Source: a virus
Lineage: Duplodnaviria; Heunggongvirae; Uroviricota; Caudoviricetes
Reading direction: 5' to 3' (one strand)
Length of the DNA stretch: 7,722 bases
IMG/VR virus record: IMGVR_UViG_3300014846_000039
The translations under genes were made by a program, and so were the position numbers. Shown here one piece after another: positions 1,708-7,722 of this stretch. The first letter of the stretch is position 1, and each line of letters starts with the position of its first letter. The notes beneath the pieces were generated by a model. The model was given only the letters and a program-made list of their open reading frames with translations, did no database searches and had not been told where the DNA came from.

Positions 1708-1945
1708 TTTTATGGATCACCTTTCTGATTGATTTCATATTGGCGAGGTGACGTGAGTTAAGTAGAATGGCTGCGGGGGGCTTGAGGCTATCTGTCTCAG
1801 GCATGAACACTGAAAGGCAGATAGAGAAAAGCCCCAGTTAACATTTCGCGTCCTGCAAGACGCTTAACATTAATCTGAGGCCCAATCTATGTCTCACAAA
1901 TGTAGGTTAGCCTCTTACGTGCCGAAAGGCAAGGGGAAGCAGGCT

Positions 1946-2209
1946 ATGAAGCAGCAAAAGGCGATGTTAATCGCCCTGATCGTCATCTGTTTAACCGTCA
2001 TTGTGACGGCACTGGTAACGAGGAAAGACCTCTGCGAGGTACGAATCCGAACCGGCCAGACGGAGGTCGCTGTCTTCACAGCTTTGCCAGGCATCCTCAA
2101 CGCACCCGCACTTAACCCGCTTCGGCGGGTTTTTGCATTAGTCTGGTTGACAAAAATAGAAAAATGCGAAAATATGTGGTTTACGAATTCTAAAAAAAGC
2201 GAAACTTGA
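1946..2209 (+). CDS. hokD: Hok/Gef-family membrane toxin, HokD(RelF)-like for the first 46 codons, with replaced and extended 3' end (possible pseudogene or variant)
   Basis: ATG 1946 with SD AAGGGGA at 1931-1937. Residues 1-46 (MKQQKAMLIALIVICLTVIVTALVTRKDLCEVRIRTGQTEVAVFTA) match HokD/RelF as I remember it; canonical Hok proteins are about 50 aa, but here the frame runs on to TGA 2207-2209 (87 aa) through a terminator hairpin and a promoter-like sequence. The ORF-track start at 1889 is in frame but upstream of the SD-supported ATG. Confidence 0.65.
   Translation: MKQQKAMLIALIVICLTVIVTALVTRKDLCEVRIRTGQTEVAVFTALPGILNAPALNPLRRVFALVWLTKIEKCENMWFTNSKKSET
2115..2134 (+). repeat. Direct repeat copy 1 (acccgcttcggcgggttttt), identical to 3950-3969
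   Basis: Exact 20-nt identity read directly from the sequence. Confidence 0.85.
2116..2134 (+). terminator. Rho-independent terminator-like hairpin (5-bp GC stem cccgc/gcggg, TTCG tetraloop, T5 run)
   Basis: Stem 2116-2120 pairs with 2125-2129, loop ttcg 2121-2124, T-run 2130-2134; lies inside the extended hok frame and just upstream of the cassette promoter-like element. Confidence 0.55.
2147..2176 (+). promoter_or_regulatory. Putative sigma70 promoter for the cassette (perfect -35 TTGACA, weak AT-rich -10)
   Basis: TTGACA at 2147-2152; about 17 nt downstream an AT-rich -10 candidate (aaatat 2170-2175); 35 nt before ATG 2211. The -10 is poor, so low confidence. Confidence 0.3.
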
Positions 2210-4609: not shown

Positions 4610-5668
4610 GTGCGGGTATTACTTCGACCTGTTCTGGTACCGGAACTCAGTCTGGTTATCGTTAAGCCAGGCCGTGAATCAATGTCAGTATTCCATAACG
4701 GCAGAATATTGGTGGAACCGGAACCCAAAAACATGCGCAGTCTTCCGTCCGGCGTCGTTGCAGCCGTTAGCCAGCCGTTGGCTGAGGATAAAACATTACT
4801 ACCATTTTTCAGCGATGAGCGGGTAATTCGTGCAGCAGGTGGTGCAGGTGCACTGTCTGACTGGTTATTACGTCACGTGAAATCCTGCCAGTGGCCACAC
4901 GGCGATTATCATCACAGCGAAACAGTCATTCACCGTTACGGTACCGGCGCGATGGTGTTGTGCTGGCACTGTGACAACCAGCTGCGCAACCAGACATCAG
5001 AATCACTCGATCAACTTGCTCAGCAGAATCTGGTTGCCTGGATGATTGACGTCATCCGTCACGCAATAAGCGGTACGCAGGAGAGGGAGTTATCGCTGGC
5101 CGAATTATCCTGGTGGGCGGCCTGCAATCAGGTGGTGGATGCACTACCTGAGGCAGTAGCGCGTCGTTCGCTGGGATTACCGGTGGAAACAATCCGCTCC
5201 GTATACCGTGAGAGTGACATCGTACCGGGAGAACAGACAGCCATCAGCATACTGAAGCAGCGCACAAAAAATATTGCGCTTCCACTTCACGTCCACCAGC
5301 AACAGCCCCCACCCCAGGAAAAGACGTTAGTAAGCATCGCCGTTGATCCGGAGTCTCCGGCTCAGTACCTCCAGCGCCAGAAACCACAACGGGAAGAGAT
5401 GCCTGTATACACGCGCTGGGTAAAAACGCAGAAATGCATGACGTGCGGTAATCAGGCAGATGATCCGCATCACATCATTGGTCATGGACTGGGAGGGATG
5501 GGAACAAAGGCTGACGATTTGTTTGTTATTCCGTTGTGCCGTAAATGCCATAACAAACTACATGCCGGAGTAAAAGATTTTGAAGAAAAACACGGCAGTC
5601 AGCTGTTGTTGCTGATTCGTTTTTTAATGCACGCGAGAAATTCGGGTGTTCTGAAGTGGAAAGCATAA
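4610..5668 (+). CDS. DUF968-family prophage protein (YdfU-like) with C-terminal HNH-like Cys/His motif
   Basis: GTG 4610 preceded by GGAGG 4601-4605; alternative ATG at 4682. C-terminus carries CMTCGNQADDPHHIIGHGLGG...CRKCHNKLH, a Cys/His pattern I associate with DUF968/HNH-like zinc-binding. Stop TAA 5666-5668 directly abuts the rusA ATG. Confidence 0.65.
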   Translation: MRVLLRPVLVPELSLVIVKPGRESMSVFHNGRILVEPEPKNMRSLPSGVVAAVSQPLAEDKTLLPFFSDERVIRAAGGAGALSDWLLRHVKSCQWPHGDYHHSETVIHRYGTGAMVLCWHCDNQLRNQTSESLDQLAQQNLVAWMIDVIRHAISGTQERELSLAELSWWAACNQVVDALPEAVARRSLGLPVETIRSVYRESDIVPGEQTAISILKQRTKNIALPLHVHQQQPPPQEKTLVSIAVDPESPAQYLQRQKPQREEMPVYTRWVKTQKCMTCGNQADDPHHIIGHGLGGMGTKADDLFVIPLCRKCHNKLHAGVKDFEEKHGSQLLLLIRFLMHARNSGVLKWKA

Positions 5669-6049
5669 ATGACCGAACGCATAGAATTTGTTTTGCCTTA
5701 CCCGCCGACGGTGAACACTTACTGGCGACGCCGTGGCAGCACATATTTTGTATCAAAAGCCGGGGAGCGTTATCGCCGGGCAGTGGCGCTTATTGTTCGC
5801 CAGCAGCGGCTGAAATTAAGCCTGTCCGGAAGGTTGGCAATAAAAATTATTGCAGAACCACCGGATAAGCGCCGCCGTGACCCGGACAATATTCTGAAAG
5901 CGCCGCTGGATGCGCTGACGCATGCGGGGTTGCTAATGGACGATGAGCAGTTTGATGAAATCAATATCGTTCGTGCTCAGCCAGTATCTGGTGGACGTCT
6001 GGGGGTGAAGATTTACCCCATAATGCTTGAAGGGCAGGTCAAAAAATGA
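5669..6049 (+). CDS. rusA: Holliday-junction resolvase RusA family
   Basis: 126-aa ORF with RusA-like blocks (LPYPPTVNTYWRR; DKRRRDPDNILKAPLDALTHAGLLMDDEQ; GGRLGV) comparable to E. coli RusA. Stop overlaps the next start (ATGA at 6046-6049). Confidence 0.85.
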   Translation: MTERIEFVLPYPPTVNTYWRRRGSTYFVSKAGERYRRAVALIVRQQRLKLSLSGRLAIKIIAEPPDKRRRDPDNILKAPLDALTHAGLLMDDEQFDEINIVRAQPVSGGRLGVKIYPIMLEGQVKK

Positions 6050-6702
6050 AACTGGAAGATTTACCGAAATACTACTCCCCAAAATCCCCCGGCCTGACTG
6101 ATGCATCGGCCTCAACGTCGAAAGATGCGCTGAGTATCACTGATGTGATGGCCGCGCAGGGCATGACACAGAATCGGGCTGAGATGGGGTTTTCTGCGTT
6201 CCTTGGGAAAATGGGCATTAGTATGAATGACAGAGAGCGGGCAACAGAATTGCTGACAGAATATGCACTCAGTCGGTGTGATCGCGTGGCGGCGTTAAGA
6301 AAACTCCCGGCAGAAATAAAACCGGTAGTGATGCGCATTATGGCTTCGTACGCTTTTGAGGATTATGCCCGCAGCGCAGCGAGTAAAAAGCAGTGCCCTT
6401 GTTGCTATGGGGAAAAATTTATTGAAAGCGTAGTTTTTACAAACAAGGTCCAGTATCCGGATGGTAAGCCGCCGGTATGGGCAAAGTGTACGAAAGGTGT
6501 GTATCCGTCTTACTGGGAAGAATGGAAAAAAAATCGGGAGGTGGTAAAAGTTGCCTGTCCGGAGTGTGGCGGAAAGGGTGAGGTTTCCACCGCCTGTAAG
6601 GATTGCCGTGGGCGTGGTGTCGCCATTCATCGTGAAGAGTCGGTAAAACGTGGTATGCCTGTTATCAGAGACTGCCAGCGTTGTGGTTGGTCGTGGCTGT
6701 GA
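6046..6702 (+). CDS. Late-gene antitermination protein Q family
   Basis: 218-aa ORF immediately after rusA (typical lambdoid order), with Cys-rich zinc-finger-like segments (CPCCYGEKF, CPECGGKGEVSTACKDCRGRG, CQRCGW) and followed by a promoter plus intrinsic terminator, as expected for Q / pR' / tR'. Confidence 0.75.
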   Translation: MKLEDLPKYYSPKSPGLTDASASTSKDALSITDVMAAQGMTQNRAEMGFSAFLGKMGISMNDRERATELLTEYALSRCDRVAALRKLPAEIKPVVMRIMASYAFEDYARSAASKKQCPCCYGEKFIESVVFTNKVQYPDGKPPVWAKCTKGVYPSYWEEWKKNREVVKVACPECGGKGEVSTACKDCRGRGVAIHREESVKRGMPVIRDCQRCGWSWL

Positions 6703-6873
6703 AAGGCTGCCATCAACGGAGGCATTTAATGCCATATGCAAAGTGACGAGTGCTATCACGCTTGATACGTGGAAAAAATCAGTGAAACGCTTTTACGATA
6801 CGTTGGTGGTTCGGTTTGACATTGAAGAGGCATGGGCGGAGCGGCAGTTAAAGAGGGTAACGCGATAGTGTTG

Positions 6874-6901
6874 TTGATTTTTCCCGAATCTGTGGTAAAT
6901 T
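6874..6901 (+). promoter_or_regulatory. Putative late promoter (pR'-like) with extended -10 (TTGATT, 16 nt, TGgTAAATT)
   Basis: -35-like TTGATT 6874-6879; TG at 6893-6894 then TAAATT 6896-6901; lies between Q and a strong intrinsic terminator. Sequence-only prediction. Confidence 0.35.
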
Positions 6902-6950
6902 TGCCCTAACGATGGGCGTTTTATGCCTGACGTTAGAAGAATTTTTACAC

Positions 6951-6972
6951 CCCGCCGCCTGGCGGGTTTTTT
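6951..6972 (+). terminator. Rho-independent terminator (tR'-like): 6-bp GC stem cccgcc/ggcggg, 4-nt loop, T6
   Basis: Stem 6951-6956 / 6961-6966, loop gcct 6957-6960, T-run 6967-6972. Confidence 0.6.
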
Positions 6973-7094
6973 ATGACTGAAATCGCGTCAGTACAGTAAA
7001 CGCGCTGGTGGCGGTGAATACCTGTCTTTCAGCTTGCTGGCTTTTTCGACAAGAGTTATTGGTGTGTCACGTTAACCGGAAAAGGGAAAAAGAC

Positions 7095-7292
7095 ATGCTG
7101 AAACAGCAGGATATGACCGAAACCGCCAGAGTGGTGTTTAATGAATTAAGTGCCACCGAACCGGCGACAGTCGGGGAGATTGCGCAGAATACTTACCTTT
7201 CACGTGAACGCTGCCAGTTAATACTGACCCAGCTTGTTATGGCGGGACTGGCAGACTATCAGTTCGGTTGTTACAGACGCCTTCAGTCCTGA
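7095..7292 (+). CDS. Small hypothetical protein (65 aa), possibly winged-helix DNA-binding
   Basis: ATG 7095 with AAGGGA-type SD at 7082-7087; ORF track lists a longer 7008..7292 version from GTG, which I consider less likely. The segment TVGEIAQNTYLSRERCQLILTQLVMAGLA resembles DeoR/MarR-like wHTH recognition helices (weak, by eye). Stop TGA 7290-7292 is inside a terminator hairpin. Confidence 0.45.
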   Translation: MLKQQDMTETARVVFNELSATEPATVGEIAQNTYLSRERCQLILTQLVMAGLADYQFGCYRRLQS

Positions 7293-7302
7293 AGGCTTTT
7301 TT
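7279..7302 (+). terminator. Rho-independent terminator (gccttca / gtcc / tgaaggc, T6)
   Basis: 7-bp stem 7279-7285 / 7290-7296, loop 7286-7289, T-run 7297-7302. Confidence 0.55.
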
Positions 7303-7391
7303 ATTTGTGGTAAATGGGCGGCTGGTGGGTGTTAGGGGCACTCACCAGCCATCTGCTCATGCGTCCGGATCACAAGCAAACCTCAGGCCCA

Positions 7392-7410
7392 CTGCTTTGC
7401 GCAAAAGCAG
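7392..7410. promoter_or_regulatory. Near-perfect 19-bp palindrome CTGCTTTGCGCAAAAGCAG upstream of the methyltransferase start (candidate operator or hairpin)
   Basis: Arms ctgcttt (7392-7398) and aaagcag (7404-7410) are reverse complements around gcgca; 33 nt before ATG 7443. Confidence 0.3.
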
Positions 7411-7442
7411 AATGAGCCTATCAGAGACAGGCTTAATGATCC

Positions 7443-7722
7443 ATGCTTAATACTGTAAAAATATCCAGTTGTGAGTTAATCAACGCCGACTGCCTGGAAT
7501 TTATCCGGTCGTTACCCGAAAATTCTGTTGACCTGATAGTCACGGACCCGCCGTACTTTAAAGTGAAGCCTGAGGGCTGGGATAACCAGTGGAAGGGCGA
7601 CGATGATTACCTGAAATGGCTGGACCAGTGTCTGGCGCAGTTCTGGCGGGTGCTGAAACCTGCCGGAAGTCTTTACCTGTTCTGTGGCCATCGCCTGGCG
7701 TCTGACATTGAAATCATGATGC
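7443..7722 (+). CDS. DNA methyltransferase (N6-adenine or N4-cytosine class, DPPY motif), 5' part only; continues beyond the window
   Basis: Open frame from ATG 7443 (in-frame TGA immediately upstream at 7437-7439) to the window end; N-terminus ...NADCLEFIRSLPENSVDLIVTDPPYF contains the DPPY catalytic motif of amino-methyltransferases. Not in the ORF track because no stop is reached. Confidence 0.8.
   Translation, partial: MLNTVKISSCELINADCLEFIRSLPENSVDLIVTDPPYFKVKPEGWDNQWKGDDDYLKWLDQCLAQFWRVLKPAGSLYLFCGHRLASDIEIMM

What the first reader, a model, noticed from the sequence alone, without database searches (positions are those of the whole stretch)
7095..7722. Small wHTH-like gene, terminator, 19-bp palindrome and DPPY methyltransferase: possible controller-type regulation of a phage methylase
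A 65-aa putative DNA-binding protein directly precedes a methyltransferase, separated by an intrinsic terminator and a near-perfect palindrome (7392-7410). This resembles the controller (C-protein) and operator arrangement of restriction-modification systems. The methylase is probably an orphan anti-restriction or epigenetic function; no restriction endonuclease is visible in the window, but the gene continues off-window.
Basis: inference. Interest (0 to 1): 0.4.

Follow-up and report, generated by a model that had tools for sequence, protein, structure and literature searches.

The report
Late-operon leader of phage methylase M.EcoGII
This stretch is the start of the late operon of a lambda-like E. 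coli prophage, where two terminators and a conserved folded RNA leader sit in front of the known non-specific DNA methylase M.EcoGII; it is not a restriction-modification "controller" circuit.

Summary
All four features are present at the stated coordinates: a 65-aa ORF (7095-7292), an intrinsic terminator (7279-7302), an inverted repeat (7392-7410) and a DPPY methylase (7443 onward).

The controller-protein reading does not hold.
- The region lies just downstream of antiterminator Q (6046-6868), a lambda-like late promoter pR' (6874-6916) and its terminator tR' (6951-6972).
- The first 93 residues of the methylase are identical to M.EcoGII, the non-specific adenine methylase reported silent in lysogens.
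- No relative has a restriction gene downstream. tRNA genes, morons such as stx2e, and lysis genes follow instead.
- The small protein is a real, conserved winged-helix protein. It accompanies the methylase in about 80-88% of loci, but each gene also occurs without the other.
- The "palindrome" is one hairpin of a ~140-nt leader that always ends at the methylase ATG and persists when the small gene is absent.
- Base-pair covariation supports a fold on the + strand RNA. The leader's 5' ~80 nt are homologous to the leader upstream of the holin gene in epsilon34, P22 and lambda. No Rfam family matches.

Most likely the methylase is controlled by Q antitermination through tandem terminators, with the leader acting on the late mRNA. 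The leader's own function is unknown.

The parts
6046..6868 (+). Late antiterminator Q gene (context). In this window it carries an extra T at 6687 that truncates it to 218 aa.
   Evidence: Pfam PF03589 Antiterm E = 3.8e-49 on the intact 273-aa relative. RefSeq annotates it as 'antitermination protein'. The frameshift is seen by alignment to L001. No complete E. coli genome shares the extra T; the best match is 99.6% over 241 nt.
6874..6916 (+). Late promoter pR': -35 TTGATT (6874-6879), a 16-nt spacer ending in TGG, -10 TAAATT (6896-6901), then AACGATGGG (6908-6916). The last element is the lambda-type sigma70 pause-inducing -10-like sequence, and the start site is probably near 6908.
   Evidence: Direct comparison with lambda pR': GGTAAATTTGACTCAACGATGGG in lambda against GGTAAATTTGCCCTAACGATGGG here. 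The consensus scan missed it because it scores 8 of 12 and the tool needs 9.
6951..6972 (+). tR', the first intrinsic terminator of the late operon. It would give a roughly 65-nt pR' transcript in a lysogen.
   Evidence: Stem CCCGCC/GGCGGG followed by TTTTTT. The fold of 6908-6975 has dG -21.9, z = -2.6. The pR'-tR' unit (6873-6974) recurs at 87-91% identity in other prophages with different downstream genes.
7095..7292 (+). 65-aa winged-helix protein gene (phrog_331, function unknown; RefSeq 'hypothetical' or 'TrmB family').
   Evidence: phrog_331 E = 1.8e-37. Pfam TrmB is subthreshold at 19.1 bits against a 25.6 cut-off. AF2 pLDDT 88.5 with winged-helix topology. Foldseek hits are winged-helix domains of IclR, MarR, O-methyltransferase N-termini and SelB, at E about 1e-3. 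Homologues occur in SfV, phiP27, mEp460, cdtI, and Klebsiella, Citrobacter, Hafnia, Morganella and Providencia phages. The codon-position pattern indicates coding selection.
7279..7302 (+). Second intrinsic terminator (t2), overlapping the stop codon of the small gene.
   Evidence: A hairpin of variable sequence at this position precedes the leader in most Escherichia, Citrobacter, Klebsiella and Enterobacter loci, including loci without the small gene. It is absent from the Proteus/Providencia-type group. A strong T-run is specific to the window's lineage.
7304..7442 (+). Conserved structured leader of the methylase mRNA.
- P1alt: 7314-7318 with 7356-7360.
- P2: 7320-7331 with 7339-7350.
- P3-lower: 7352-7355 with 7377-7380.
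- P4: 7392-7398 with 7404-7410.
- A window-specific hairpin at 7415-7433.
   Evidence: Spacer nucleotide identity is 0.65-0.73 where third-codon identity is 0.25-0.53. Covariance model R1 finds one copy per methylase locus, always on the + strand and ending at the ATG, at 93-157 bits. Of 34 pairs, 19 show double-sided changes, against 11.6 +/- 1.4 in shuffles and 4-6 in slid controls. P1alt is 100% pair-compatible. No Rfam match.
7392..7410 (+).
   Evidence: Core GCUU..AAGC is invariant. The outer pairs are weakly supported: the pair at alignment columns 136-154 is UA 27, CG 5, UG 5, unpaired 23. The distance between the invariant GCTT and AAGC arms varies from 7 to 9 nt across lineages.
7443..7722 (+). 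5' part (93 codons) of an M.EcoGII-family beta-class N6-adenine DNA methyltransferase. It continues off-window and is 352 aa in the closest relative.
   Evidence: 100% identity over 93 aa to M.EcoGII as printed in Supplementary Table S1 of PMC11551740. The full-length relative is 94% identical. PF01555 E = 9.5e-44.

Best explanation
The stretch is the 5' end of the late operon of a lambdoid E. coli prophage.

Proposed mechanism:
1. The late promoter pR' (6874-6916) fires constitutively.
2. In a lysogen its transcripts stop about 65 nt downstream at tR' (6951-6972). A second terminator (7279-7302) backs this up.
3. Only RNA polymerase modified by the Q antiterminator, whose gene ends at 6868, reads through both terminators, the 65-aa winged-helix gene and a ~140-nt structured leader, and into the methylase gene.
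4. The methylase is M.EcoGII or a near-identical allele, a non-specific adenine methylase that is harmful when expressed constitutively.
5. It is therefore kept silent in the prophage and made only late in lytic growth, where it would methylate progeny DNA against restriction in the next host.

The inverted repeat at 7392-7410 is hairpin P4 of the leader RNA, not a protein operator.

The 5' two-thirds of the leader is a long interrupted hairpin (P1alt-P2) plus P3. It is an ancient late-leader element shared with epsilon34, P22 and lambda, where it precedes the holin gene. It most plausibly acts on the late mRNA through processing, stability or translation of the first late gene. RNase III cleavage is one candidate.

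The winged-helix protein is a frequent but dispensable companion whose role is unknown.

Shown:
- the sequence anatomy;
- homology to lambda pR';
- identity to M.EcoGII;
- synteny;
- conservation and covariation of the leader.

Inferred:
- Q-dependent read-through;
- late timing of expression;
- the anti-restriction role;
- any function of the leader.
For: - Genomic context in relatives is Q, then the small ORF, the methylase, tRNAs, morons such as stx2e, and lysis genes.
- pR' matches lambda through the -10 and the AACGATGGG pause element.
- Two canonical terminators are present.
- No sigma70 promoter-like site was found between tR' and the methylase.
- The first 93 residues of the methylase are 100% identical to M.EcoGII.
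- The leader travels with the methylase even where the small gene is missing.
- Covariation and one-strand wobble compatibility support a + strand RNA fold.
- Homology of the leader's 5' part to the holin leader of epsilon34 has z = 13.6, with 0 of 2000 shuffles reaching the score. The lambda copy is a covariance-model hit at E = 1.4e-4.
Against: - Nothing here measures transcription, so Q dependence is inferred from anatomy and from lambda and Stx-phage precedent.
- Q is frameshifted in this window. In this particular genome the operon may be dead, or the extra T may be a sequencing error.
- The strong 80-88% co-occurrence and constant 150-nt spacing of the small gene and the methylase are not explained by Q control alone.
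- The centre of P4 stays self-complementary in several lineages (AGCGCT, GTGCAC, GTCGAC, ACGCGT). That pattern would also suit a DNA dyad.
- The structural counts on A4 come from an alignment fitted to the model.
Confidence: 0.7

Rival explanations
1. Controller-type circuit. The 65-aa winged-helix protein binds the 7392-7410 palindrome as duplex DNA and represses or activates methylase transcription, as C proteins do in restriction-modification systems.
For: - The winged-helix fold is supported.
- The putative recognition helix RCQLILTQL is almost invariant across genera.
- The gene pair is syntenic in 203 of 230 and 59 of 74 sampled loci.
- The centre of P4 remains self-complementary in several sequence versions.
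Against: - No restriction gene is present in any relative.
- No promoter-like site lies next to the palindrome.
- The site is single and lies downstream of the regulator gene.
- Leader and palindrome are retained unchanged in loci without the small gene.
- Small-protein alleles only 55% identical sit next to identical leaders.
- Arm spacing varies by 7-9 nt.
- M.EcoGII cloned alone is active (PMC5778455).
Confidence: 0.1
2. Post-transcriptional gate. The winged-helix protein, or the methylase itself (which also acts on RNA), binds the structured leader RNA and limits translation of the toxic methylase. This could operate on top of Q antitermination.
For: - The leader ends exactly at the ATG.
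- E. coli-type leaders have no Shine-Dalgarno sequence.
- The apical part of P2 and several single-stranded blocks are conserved in sequence, as expected of a binding site.
- M.EcoGII methylates RNA (abstract of PMC5778455).
- Some winged-helix domains bind RNA; SelB is among the Foldseek hits.
Against: - The 5' two-thirds of the leader also precede holin genes in phages that have neither protein.
- There is no direct evidence of binding.
- The small protein is absent from about 12% of methylase loci.
Confidence: 0.15
3. The leader has no function of its own. It is conserved as a recombination 'linker' or mosaic-module boundary, possibly helped by the Chi site at 7321-7328, or through recent horizontal spread.
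For: - Mosaic breakpoints fall at 6951 and at about 7332, right after the Chi site.
- Chi is over-represented in the window: 3 sites against 0.27 expected.
- Leaders are identical between phages with different small-gene alleles.
Against: - Compensatory changes keep the helices intact while the sequence changes. P2 reads GGCUGG../..CCAGCC, GACUGU../..ACAGUC and GACCGA../..UCGGUC in different lineages.
- Chi itself is lost in those lineages.
- Conservation exceeds synonymous-site identity in comparisons where synonymous sites are near saturation.
Confidence: 0.05

Closest known systems
M.EcoGII / M.EcoGI, non-specific beta-class N6-adenine methyltransferases of E. coli O104:H4 C227-11 prophages (Murray et al. 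2018, PMC5778455)
   Same: - The first 93 residues are identical, and the full-length relative is 94% identical.
- Both have an N-terminal DPPY motif.
- Both are prophage-borne.
- Both are found in phage 1720a-02, which matches the window at 96.6% nucleotide identity.
   Different: None shown for the enzyme. The upstream terminators, the small gene and the leader are not mentioned in the passages of that paper I retrieved (a term search that included 'upstream'); I did not read it in full.
Lambda pR'-qut-6S RNA-tR' late control, and the Stx-phage equivalent that yields StxS (PMC7547250)
   Same: - A constitutive promoter is followed by an early intrinsic terminator.
- The -10 TAAATT and the AACGATGGG pause element are shared with lambda.
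- The Q gene lies immediately upstream, and the late and lysis genes downstream.
   Different: - The terminated RNA would be about 65 nt, against 194 nt (lambda, from memory, not checked here) and 258 nt (StxS).
- Q belongs to a different family, PF03589.
- Two extra genes and a second terminator lie between tR' and the lysis cassette.
Controller (C) proteins of type II restriction-modification systems, such as C.PvuII, C.AhdI and C.Esp1396I (from general knowledge)
   Same: A small helix-turn-helix-type protein gene lies next to a methylase gene, with an inverted repeat nearby.
   Different: - There is no endonuclease gene.
- The fold is winged-helix, not Xre-type.
- The repeat is single, lies downstream of the small gene, and sits inside a conserved RNA leader.
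- Each gene occurs without the other.
Leader between tR' and the holin gene in lambda (45016-45152), P22, ES18 and epsilon34
   Same: The motif GTGAAAATGGGCGGC, a 10-12-bp covarying hairpin and the block ..TTTGCTCATGC..GTCACGAACAAACCACG are homologous to window 7307-7385.
   Different: - The phage versions lack GGCCCA, P4 and the GAGCCTATCAGAG block, and lead into a holin gene rather than a methylase.
[quoted passage not shown] 1988, Virology 167:568). I know this from the title only, cited as reference 49 of PMC7547250. I could not check whether the sites coincide with this hairpin.

Membership tests
C-protein-controlled restriction-modification system | A restriction endonuclease gene adjacent to, and co-regulated with, the C gene | tested here: not met
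   Downstream of the methylase in relatives are tRNA genes, morons (tolA-like, stx2e) or the holin and lysis genes. Upstream is Q.
C-protein-controlled restriction-modification system | The regulator is a small Xre-type helix-turn-helix protein | tested here: not met
   The best Pfam hits are winged-helix families (TrmB, MarR_2, HTH_24), all subthreshold, with no HTH_3 hit. The AF2 model has winged-helix topology.
C-protein-controlled restriction-modification system | Paired palindromic C-boxes immediately upstream of the C gene | tested here: not met
   There is a single inverted repeat, 100 nt downstream of the small gene and 33 nt upstream of the methylase ATG. No second copy exists in the window.
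M.EcoGII-family beta-class N6-adenine methyltransferase | Close sequence identity to M.EcoGII | tested here: met
   93 of 93 residues are identical for the window part, and 329 of 349 (94%) for the full-length relative L001. The reference sequence was taken from an OCR copy of a supplementary PDF.
M.EcoGII-family beta-class N6-adenine methyltransferase | Beta-class motif order: N-terminal DPPY, central target-recognition domain, C-terminal FxGxG | tested here: met
   D35-P-P-Y38 lies in the window. FMGSGS at 309-314 lies in the relative. PF01555 spans residues 29-340.
M.EcoGII-family beta-class N6-adenine methyltransferase | Sequence-independent adenine methylation | not testable with these tools
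   Requires methylome or enzymatic data. It is inferred from identity to the characterised enzyme (PMC5778455).
Lambdoid late operon under Q antitermination | Q gene directly upstream of the promoter | tested here: met
   PF03589 E = 3.8e-49 and phrog_127. In this window the gene has a +1 frameshift at 6687.
Lambdoid late operon under Q antitermination | Promoter with a promoter-proximal sigma70 pause element, followed closely by an intrinsic terminator | tested here: met
   TAAATT-N6-AACGATGGG is identical to lambda. The terminator lies at 6951-6972.
Lambdoid late operon under Q antitermination | Q-dependent read-through into late genes | not testable with these tools
   Needs transcript mapping with and without Q.
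Winged-helix (TrmB/MarR-like) DNA-binding proteins | Score above the family gathering threshold | tested here: not met
   TrmB 19.1 bits against 25.6. MarR_2 15.9 against 27.
Winged-helix (TrmB/MarR-like) DNA-binding proteins | H1-S1-H2-H3-S2-wing-S3 fold | tested here: met
   AF2 gives helices at 4-16, 26-33 and 37-49 and strands at 53-56 and 59-62, with pLDDT 88.5. Only one of the five models was this confident. TM-score is 0.8 to the IclR winged-helix domain.
Any curated RNA family (Rfam 15) | Covariance-model match to the leader | tested here: not met
   No hit at E <= 1 in the window or in L004, L010, L011 or lambda across this element.

The most novel reading that the evidence does not exclude
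The ~140-nt leader would be a previously undescribed structured RNA of lambdoid late operons. Its core is a covarying long hairpin plus a pseudoknot or alternative helix, and this core is present even in lambda and P22 upstream of the holin gene. In M.EcoGII-type phages the core has gained a 3' extension (P4 and the GAGCCUAUCAGAG block). Together with the companion winged-helix protein, or with the methylase itself, this extension would gate translation or processing of a toxic, sequence-independent methylase.
Probability: 0.25. Interest if true: 0.6.

Novelty: new member of a known kind. Interest (0 to 1): 0.35.

Why it matters
M.EcoGII is widely used as a tool for non-specific m6A marking, and it is common in E. 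coli prophages. The upstream module (window 6860-7460) matches at 80% coverage or more in 2365 of 5426 complete genomes.

Placing the gene behind pR', two terminators and a structured leader gives a concrete explanation for its silence in lysogens. It also predicts when progeny DNA becomes hypermethylated.

The leader itself shows covariation and is shared with the lambda and P22 holin leaders. It is a testable candidate for a cis-acting element in the best-studied phage family, and it may correspond to the old, little-followed report of RNase III sites in the lambda late leader.

Tried and rejected
- **A sigma70 promoter between tR' and the methylase.** The scan found none. The conserved TGTG(A/G)AAAT at the leader start resembles an extended -10, but the critical A at -11 and the TG spacing are not conserved (GGAAAT and TGAAAT variants). 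A promoter there would also defeat Q control.
- **A promoter for the small gene, in the moron style.** The conserved block CTTGCTG..GACAAGAGTTA gives no consistent -10.
- **My first leader model, helix P1 (UGGGC/GCCCA).** It is invariant in the methylase-type leaders and varies only slightly once diverged sequences are added. It is absent from the lambda and P22 versions and is broken in L277. P1alt (AUGGG/CUCAU) fits every sequence and shows two compensatory events.
- **A pseudoknot between the P2 loop and CUA(U/C)CA.** It holds in some lineages but not consistently.
- **A protein-coding reading of the spacer** (the 60-aa ORF 7268-7450). It is broken by 1-nt indels in relatives.
- **Homology of the small protein to lambda orf-64.** None was found.
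- **Chi as the selected feature of P2.** Chi is lost in the Proteus-type and L277 lineages while the pairing is kept.
- **The genome contigs pattern scan.** It was too permissive and mostly returned chance hits in GC-rich genomes; only about 18 Enterobacterales loci were usable.
- **Literature searches.** Searches for the leader sequence and for the lambda tandem terminators found nothing. The 1988 RNase III paper is not held.

Full report
**Observation.**
- The ORF runs from ATG 7095 to the stop at 7290-7292 and encodes 65 aa.
- A canonical intrinsic terminator has stem 7279-7296 followed by TTTTTTATTT, dG -10.5 kcal/mol, z = -3.2. It overlaps the stop codon.
- 7392-7410 reads CTGCTTTGCGCAAAAGCAG: two 7-nt arms around an asymmetric 5-nt centre.
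- On its own this repeat is unremarkable. Its fold has z = -1.1, 34 of 200 shuffles fold as well, and there is no second copy in the window.
- The methylase starts at 7443, carries DPPY at residues 35-38 and runs off the window.

**Context.** The window is a lambdoid E. coli prophage. It carries QueH, hok/sok, DUF968, RusA and Q.
- The finding lies immediately downstream of the Q antiterminator gene (6046-6868; PF03589, E = 3.8e-49 on the intact relative).
- Between Q and the small ORF lies a promoter. Its -10 and initially transcribed region match lambda pR' almost base for base: GGTAAATTTGCCCTAACGATGGG here against GGTAAATTTGACTCAACGATGGG in lambda.
- The match includes AACGATGGG, which I recall (from the lambda literature, not checked here) to be the sigma70-dependent pause element at which Q loads.
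- A strong terminator follows at 6951-6972, CCCGCC/GGCGGG plus T6. Unmodified polymerase would therefore make a roughly 65-nt RNA, the counterpart of lambda 6S RNA and of StxS (PMC7547250).
- Relatives show what lies beyond the window. The methylase is 352 aa. It is followed by tRNA genes, by morons (stx2e in phiP27) or directly by the holin, and then by the lysis genes.
- No relative has a restriction endonuclease gene.
- The module from 6951 onward is mosaic and pairs with several different Q/pR' types.
- The same Q/pR'/tR' also occurs with the tRNAs directly behind it and no methylase.

**The methylase.** The 93 residues encoded in the window are identical to the N-terminus of M.EcoGII as printed in Supplementary Table S1 of PMC11551740. 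The full-length relative is 94% identical, and some of the differences may be OCR errors.
- M.EcoGII is the non-specific adenine methyltransferase of E. coli O104:H4.
- Its describers noted relatives in phage 1720a-02, which matches this window at 96.6% nucleotide identity.
- The anatomy here supplies a mechanism for that silence: the gene sits behind pR' and two terminators, with no promoter-like site in between.

**The small protein.** It is a real gene.
- Homologues at 48-98% identity occur in phages of Escherichia, Shigella, Klebsiella, Citrobacter, Hafnia, Morganella and Providencia.
- Divergence is concentrated at third codon positions.
- It belongs to phrog_331, whose function is unknown.
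- Pfam winged-helix families hit only below threshold.
- An AlphaFold model with pLDDT 88.5 has the H1-strand-H2-H3-hairpin topology. It superposes on the winged-helix domains of IclR and MarR regulators, on O-methyltransferase N-termini and on SelB.
- 'wHTH-like' is therefore correct, but the protein is generic and carries a net charge of about -1.

**The palindrome is part of a structured leader.** The spacer between the small gene and the methylase keeps its length (138-153 nt) and much of its sequence from E. coli to Morganella.
- Spacer identity is 0.65-0.73 in comparisons where third-codon identity of the flanking genes is 0.25-0.53.
- I sampled loci by methylase homology. Of 230 loci, 203 have the small gene 131-156 nt upstream.
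- Most of the 27 without it still carry the leader directly before the ATG, preceded by tR' or another hairpin.
- A covariance model built on 62 non-redundant leaders finds exactly one copy per methylase locus. The copy is always on the + strand and always ends at the ATG.

**Pair counts support base-pairing.**
- 81-84% of cells pair, against 27-47% when the partners are slid.
- 19 of 34 pairs have changes on both sides, against 11.6 +/- 1.4 in shuffles and 4-6 in slid controls.
- P2 (7320-7331 with 7339-7350) is rewritten in different lineages with pairing kept: GGCUGGUGGGUG/CACCCACCAGCC, GACUGUAAAGUG/CACCUUUACAGUC and GACCGAUGAGUG/CACACAUCGGUC.
- An outer helix, P1alt (AUGGG 7314-7318 with CUCAU 7356-7360), is pair-compatible in all 300 cells. 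Its variation is U-A/U-G and G-C/G-U, plus C-G in lambda and A-U in L277. That one-strand wobble pattern argues for the + strand RNA.
- P3-lower (7352-7355 with 7377-7380) covaries at three of its four pairs. It crosses P1alt, so it is either an H-type pseudoknot or an alternative fold.
Its outer pairs are weak and the distance between its invariant arms varies from 7 to 9 nt.
- That variation fits a hairpin better than a fixed-spacing dimer site. However, the centre of P4 is self-complementary in several versions, so a DNA-level role is not excluded.
- No Rfam family matches, and I found no paper containing the sequence.

**The leader is older than the methylase.** The model also hit lambda at 45016-45152, just upstream of gene S, at E = 1.4e-4.
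- The lambda version is conserved in 184 phage records, including Sf6, P22, ES18 and epsilon34, always between tR' and the holin.
- Aligned together, the two types share GTGAAAATGGGCGGC, the covarying hairpin and ..TTTGCTCATGC..GTCACGAACAAACCACG.
- Epsilon34 against the mEp460-type leader gives a local alignment z of 13.6, with 0 of 2000 shuffles reaching the score.
- The first ~80 nt of the leader are therefore a general lambdoid late-leader element. GGCCCA, P4 and the GAGCCUAUCAGAG block are the methylase-specific 3' extension.
- A paper title cited in PMC7547250 (Daniels et al. 1988) reports RNase III processing sites in the lambda late leader.
- The long interrupted P1alt-P2 hairpin is a plausible substrate, but I could not read that paper.

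**Testing the controller idea.** Every defining feature of C-protein systems that I could test failed.
- There is no endonuclease gene.
- The protein does not have an Xre-type fold.
- There are no paired operators upstream of the regulator gene.
- The small gene also occurs without the methylase in 15 of 74 loci, for example ATCC 25922 and an Stx2k phage. The methylase and leader occur without the small gene.
- Small-protein alleles only 55% identical sit beside identical leaders.
- M.EcoGII is active when cloned alone.
- What remains unexplained is the strong synteny and the nearly invariant helix 3 (RCQLILTQL). I therefore keep a minority probability that the protein acts on the leader, as DNA or as RNA.

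**Verdict.** The features are real, and the orphan anti-restriction methylase is right. The regulatory model is not right.
- The main control is almost certainly Q antitermination through tandem terminators.
- The palindrome is one hairpin of a conserved leader RNA whose function is unknown.
- The enzyme and the late-operon logic are already known.
- The companion protein and the leader are uncharacterised members of known kinds.

Noticed in passing
window 6687 (within Q, 6046-6868): An extra T relative to all relatives shifts the frame and truncates Q from 273 to 218 aa. None of 5426 complete E. coli genomes shares it; the best match is 99.6% over 241 nt, differing only by this indel. It is either a sequencing error or a dead late operon in this strain.
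   Followed up: partly
lambda 45016-45152 (L372:1217-1353); P22 L454:451-564; ES18 L455; epsilon34 L456: The 5' ~80 nt of the methylase leader are homologous to a conserved, unannotated element between tR' and the holin gene of lambda and P22-like phages (184 phage records). This suggests a general structured late-leader RNA, possibly the RNase III site reported for lambda in 1988.
   Followed up: partly
window 5293-5300 (-), 7004-7011 (+), 7321-7328 (+): There are three Chi sequences (GCTGGTGG) in 7.7 kb against 0.27 expected; 0 of 200 shuffles reach 3. Two flank the small gene in the same orientation. A recurrent mosaic breakpoint at about 7332 lies just after the second of these.
   Followed up: partly
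window ~7031-7075: A block upstream of the small ORF (CTTGCTG-N8-10-GAC(A/C)AGAGTTA..TGT) is conserved from E. coli to Morganella. It has no consistent sigma70 -10, so it may be another RNA element or a protein site.
   Followed up: no
window 6891-6900 and 7306-7315: TGTGGTAAAT occurs at the pR' extended -10 and again at the 5' edge of the leader. In addition, the tails of tR' and t2 are 82% alike (6958-6974 against 7288-7304). This hints that the small-gene cassette arose by duplication or insertion at a terminator.
   Followed up: no
window 6908-6972: The predicted ~65-nt constitutive pR'-tR' transcript would be a counterpart of lambda 6S RNA and of the Hfq-binding StxS sRNA. The pR'-tR' unit recurs at 87-91% identity in many prophages with different downstream genes.
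   Followed up: no
window 7420-7445 and relatives: The methylase start has no recognisable Shine-Dalgarno sequence in E. coli-type leaders. A GATC site (7438-7441) abuts the start codon in most lineages.
   Followed up: no
window 1776-1951 and 1021-1707: A sok antitoxin RNA (Rfam RF01794, 116 bits) lies next to hokD. An epoxyqueuosine reductase QueH gene is also carried by the prophage.
   Followed up: no
L373 (phage phiSTEC1575-Stx2k) 2477-3548: In this Stx2k phage the small winged-helix gene and the first third of the leader are followed by a 237-aa helix-turn-helix protein gene instead of the methylase, and then by tRNAs and stx2.
   Followed up: no
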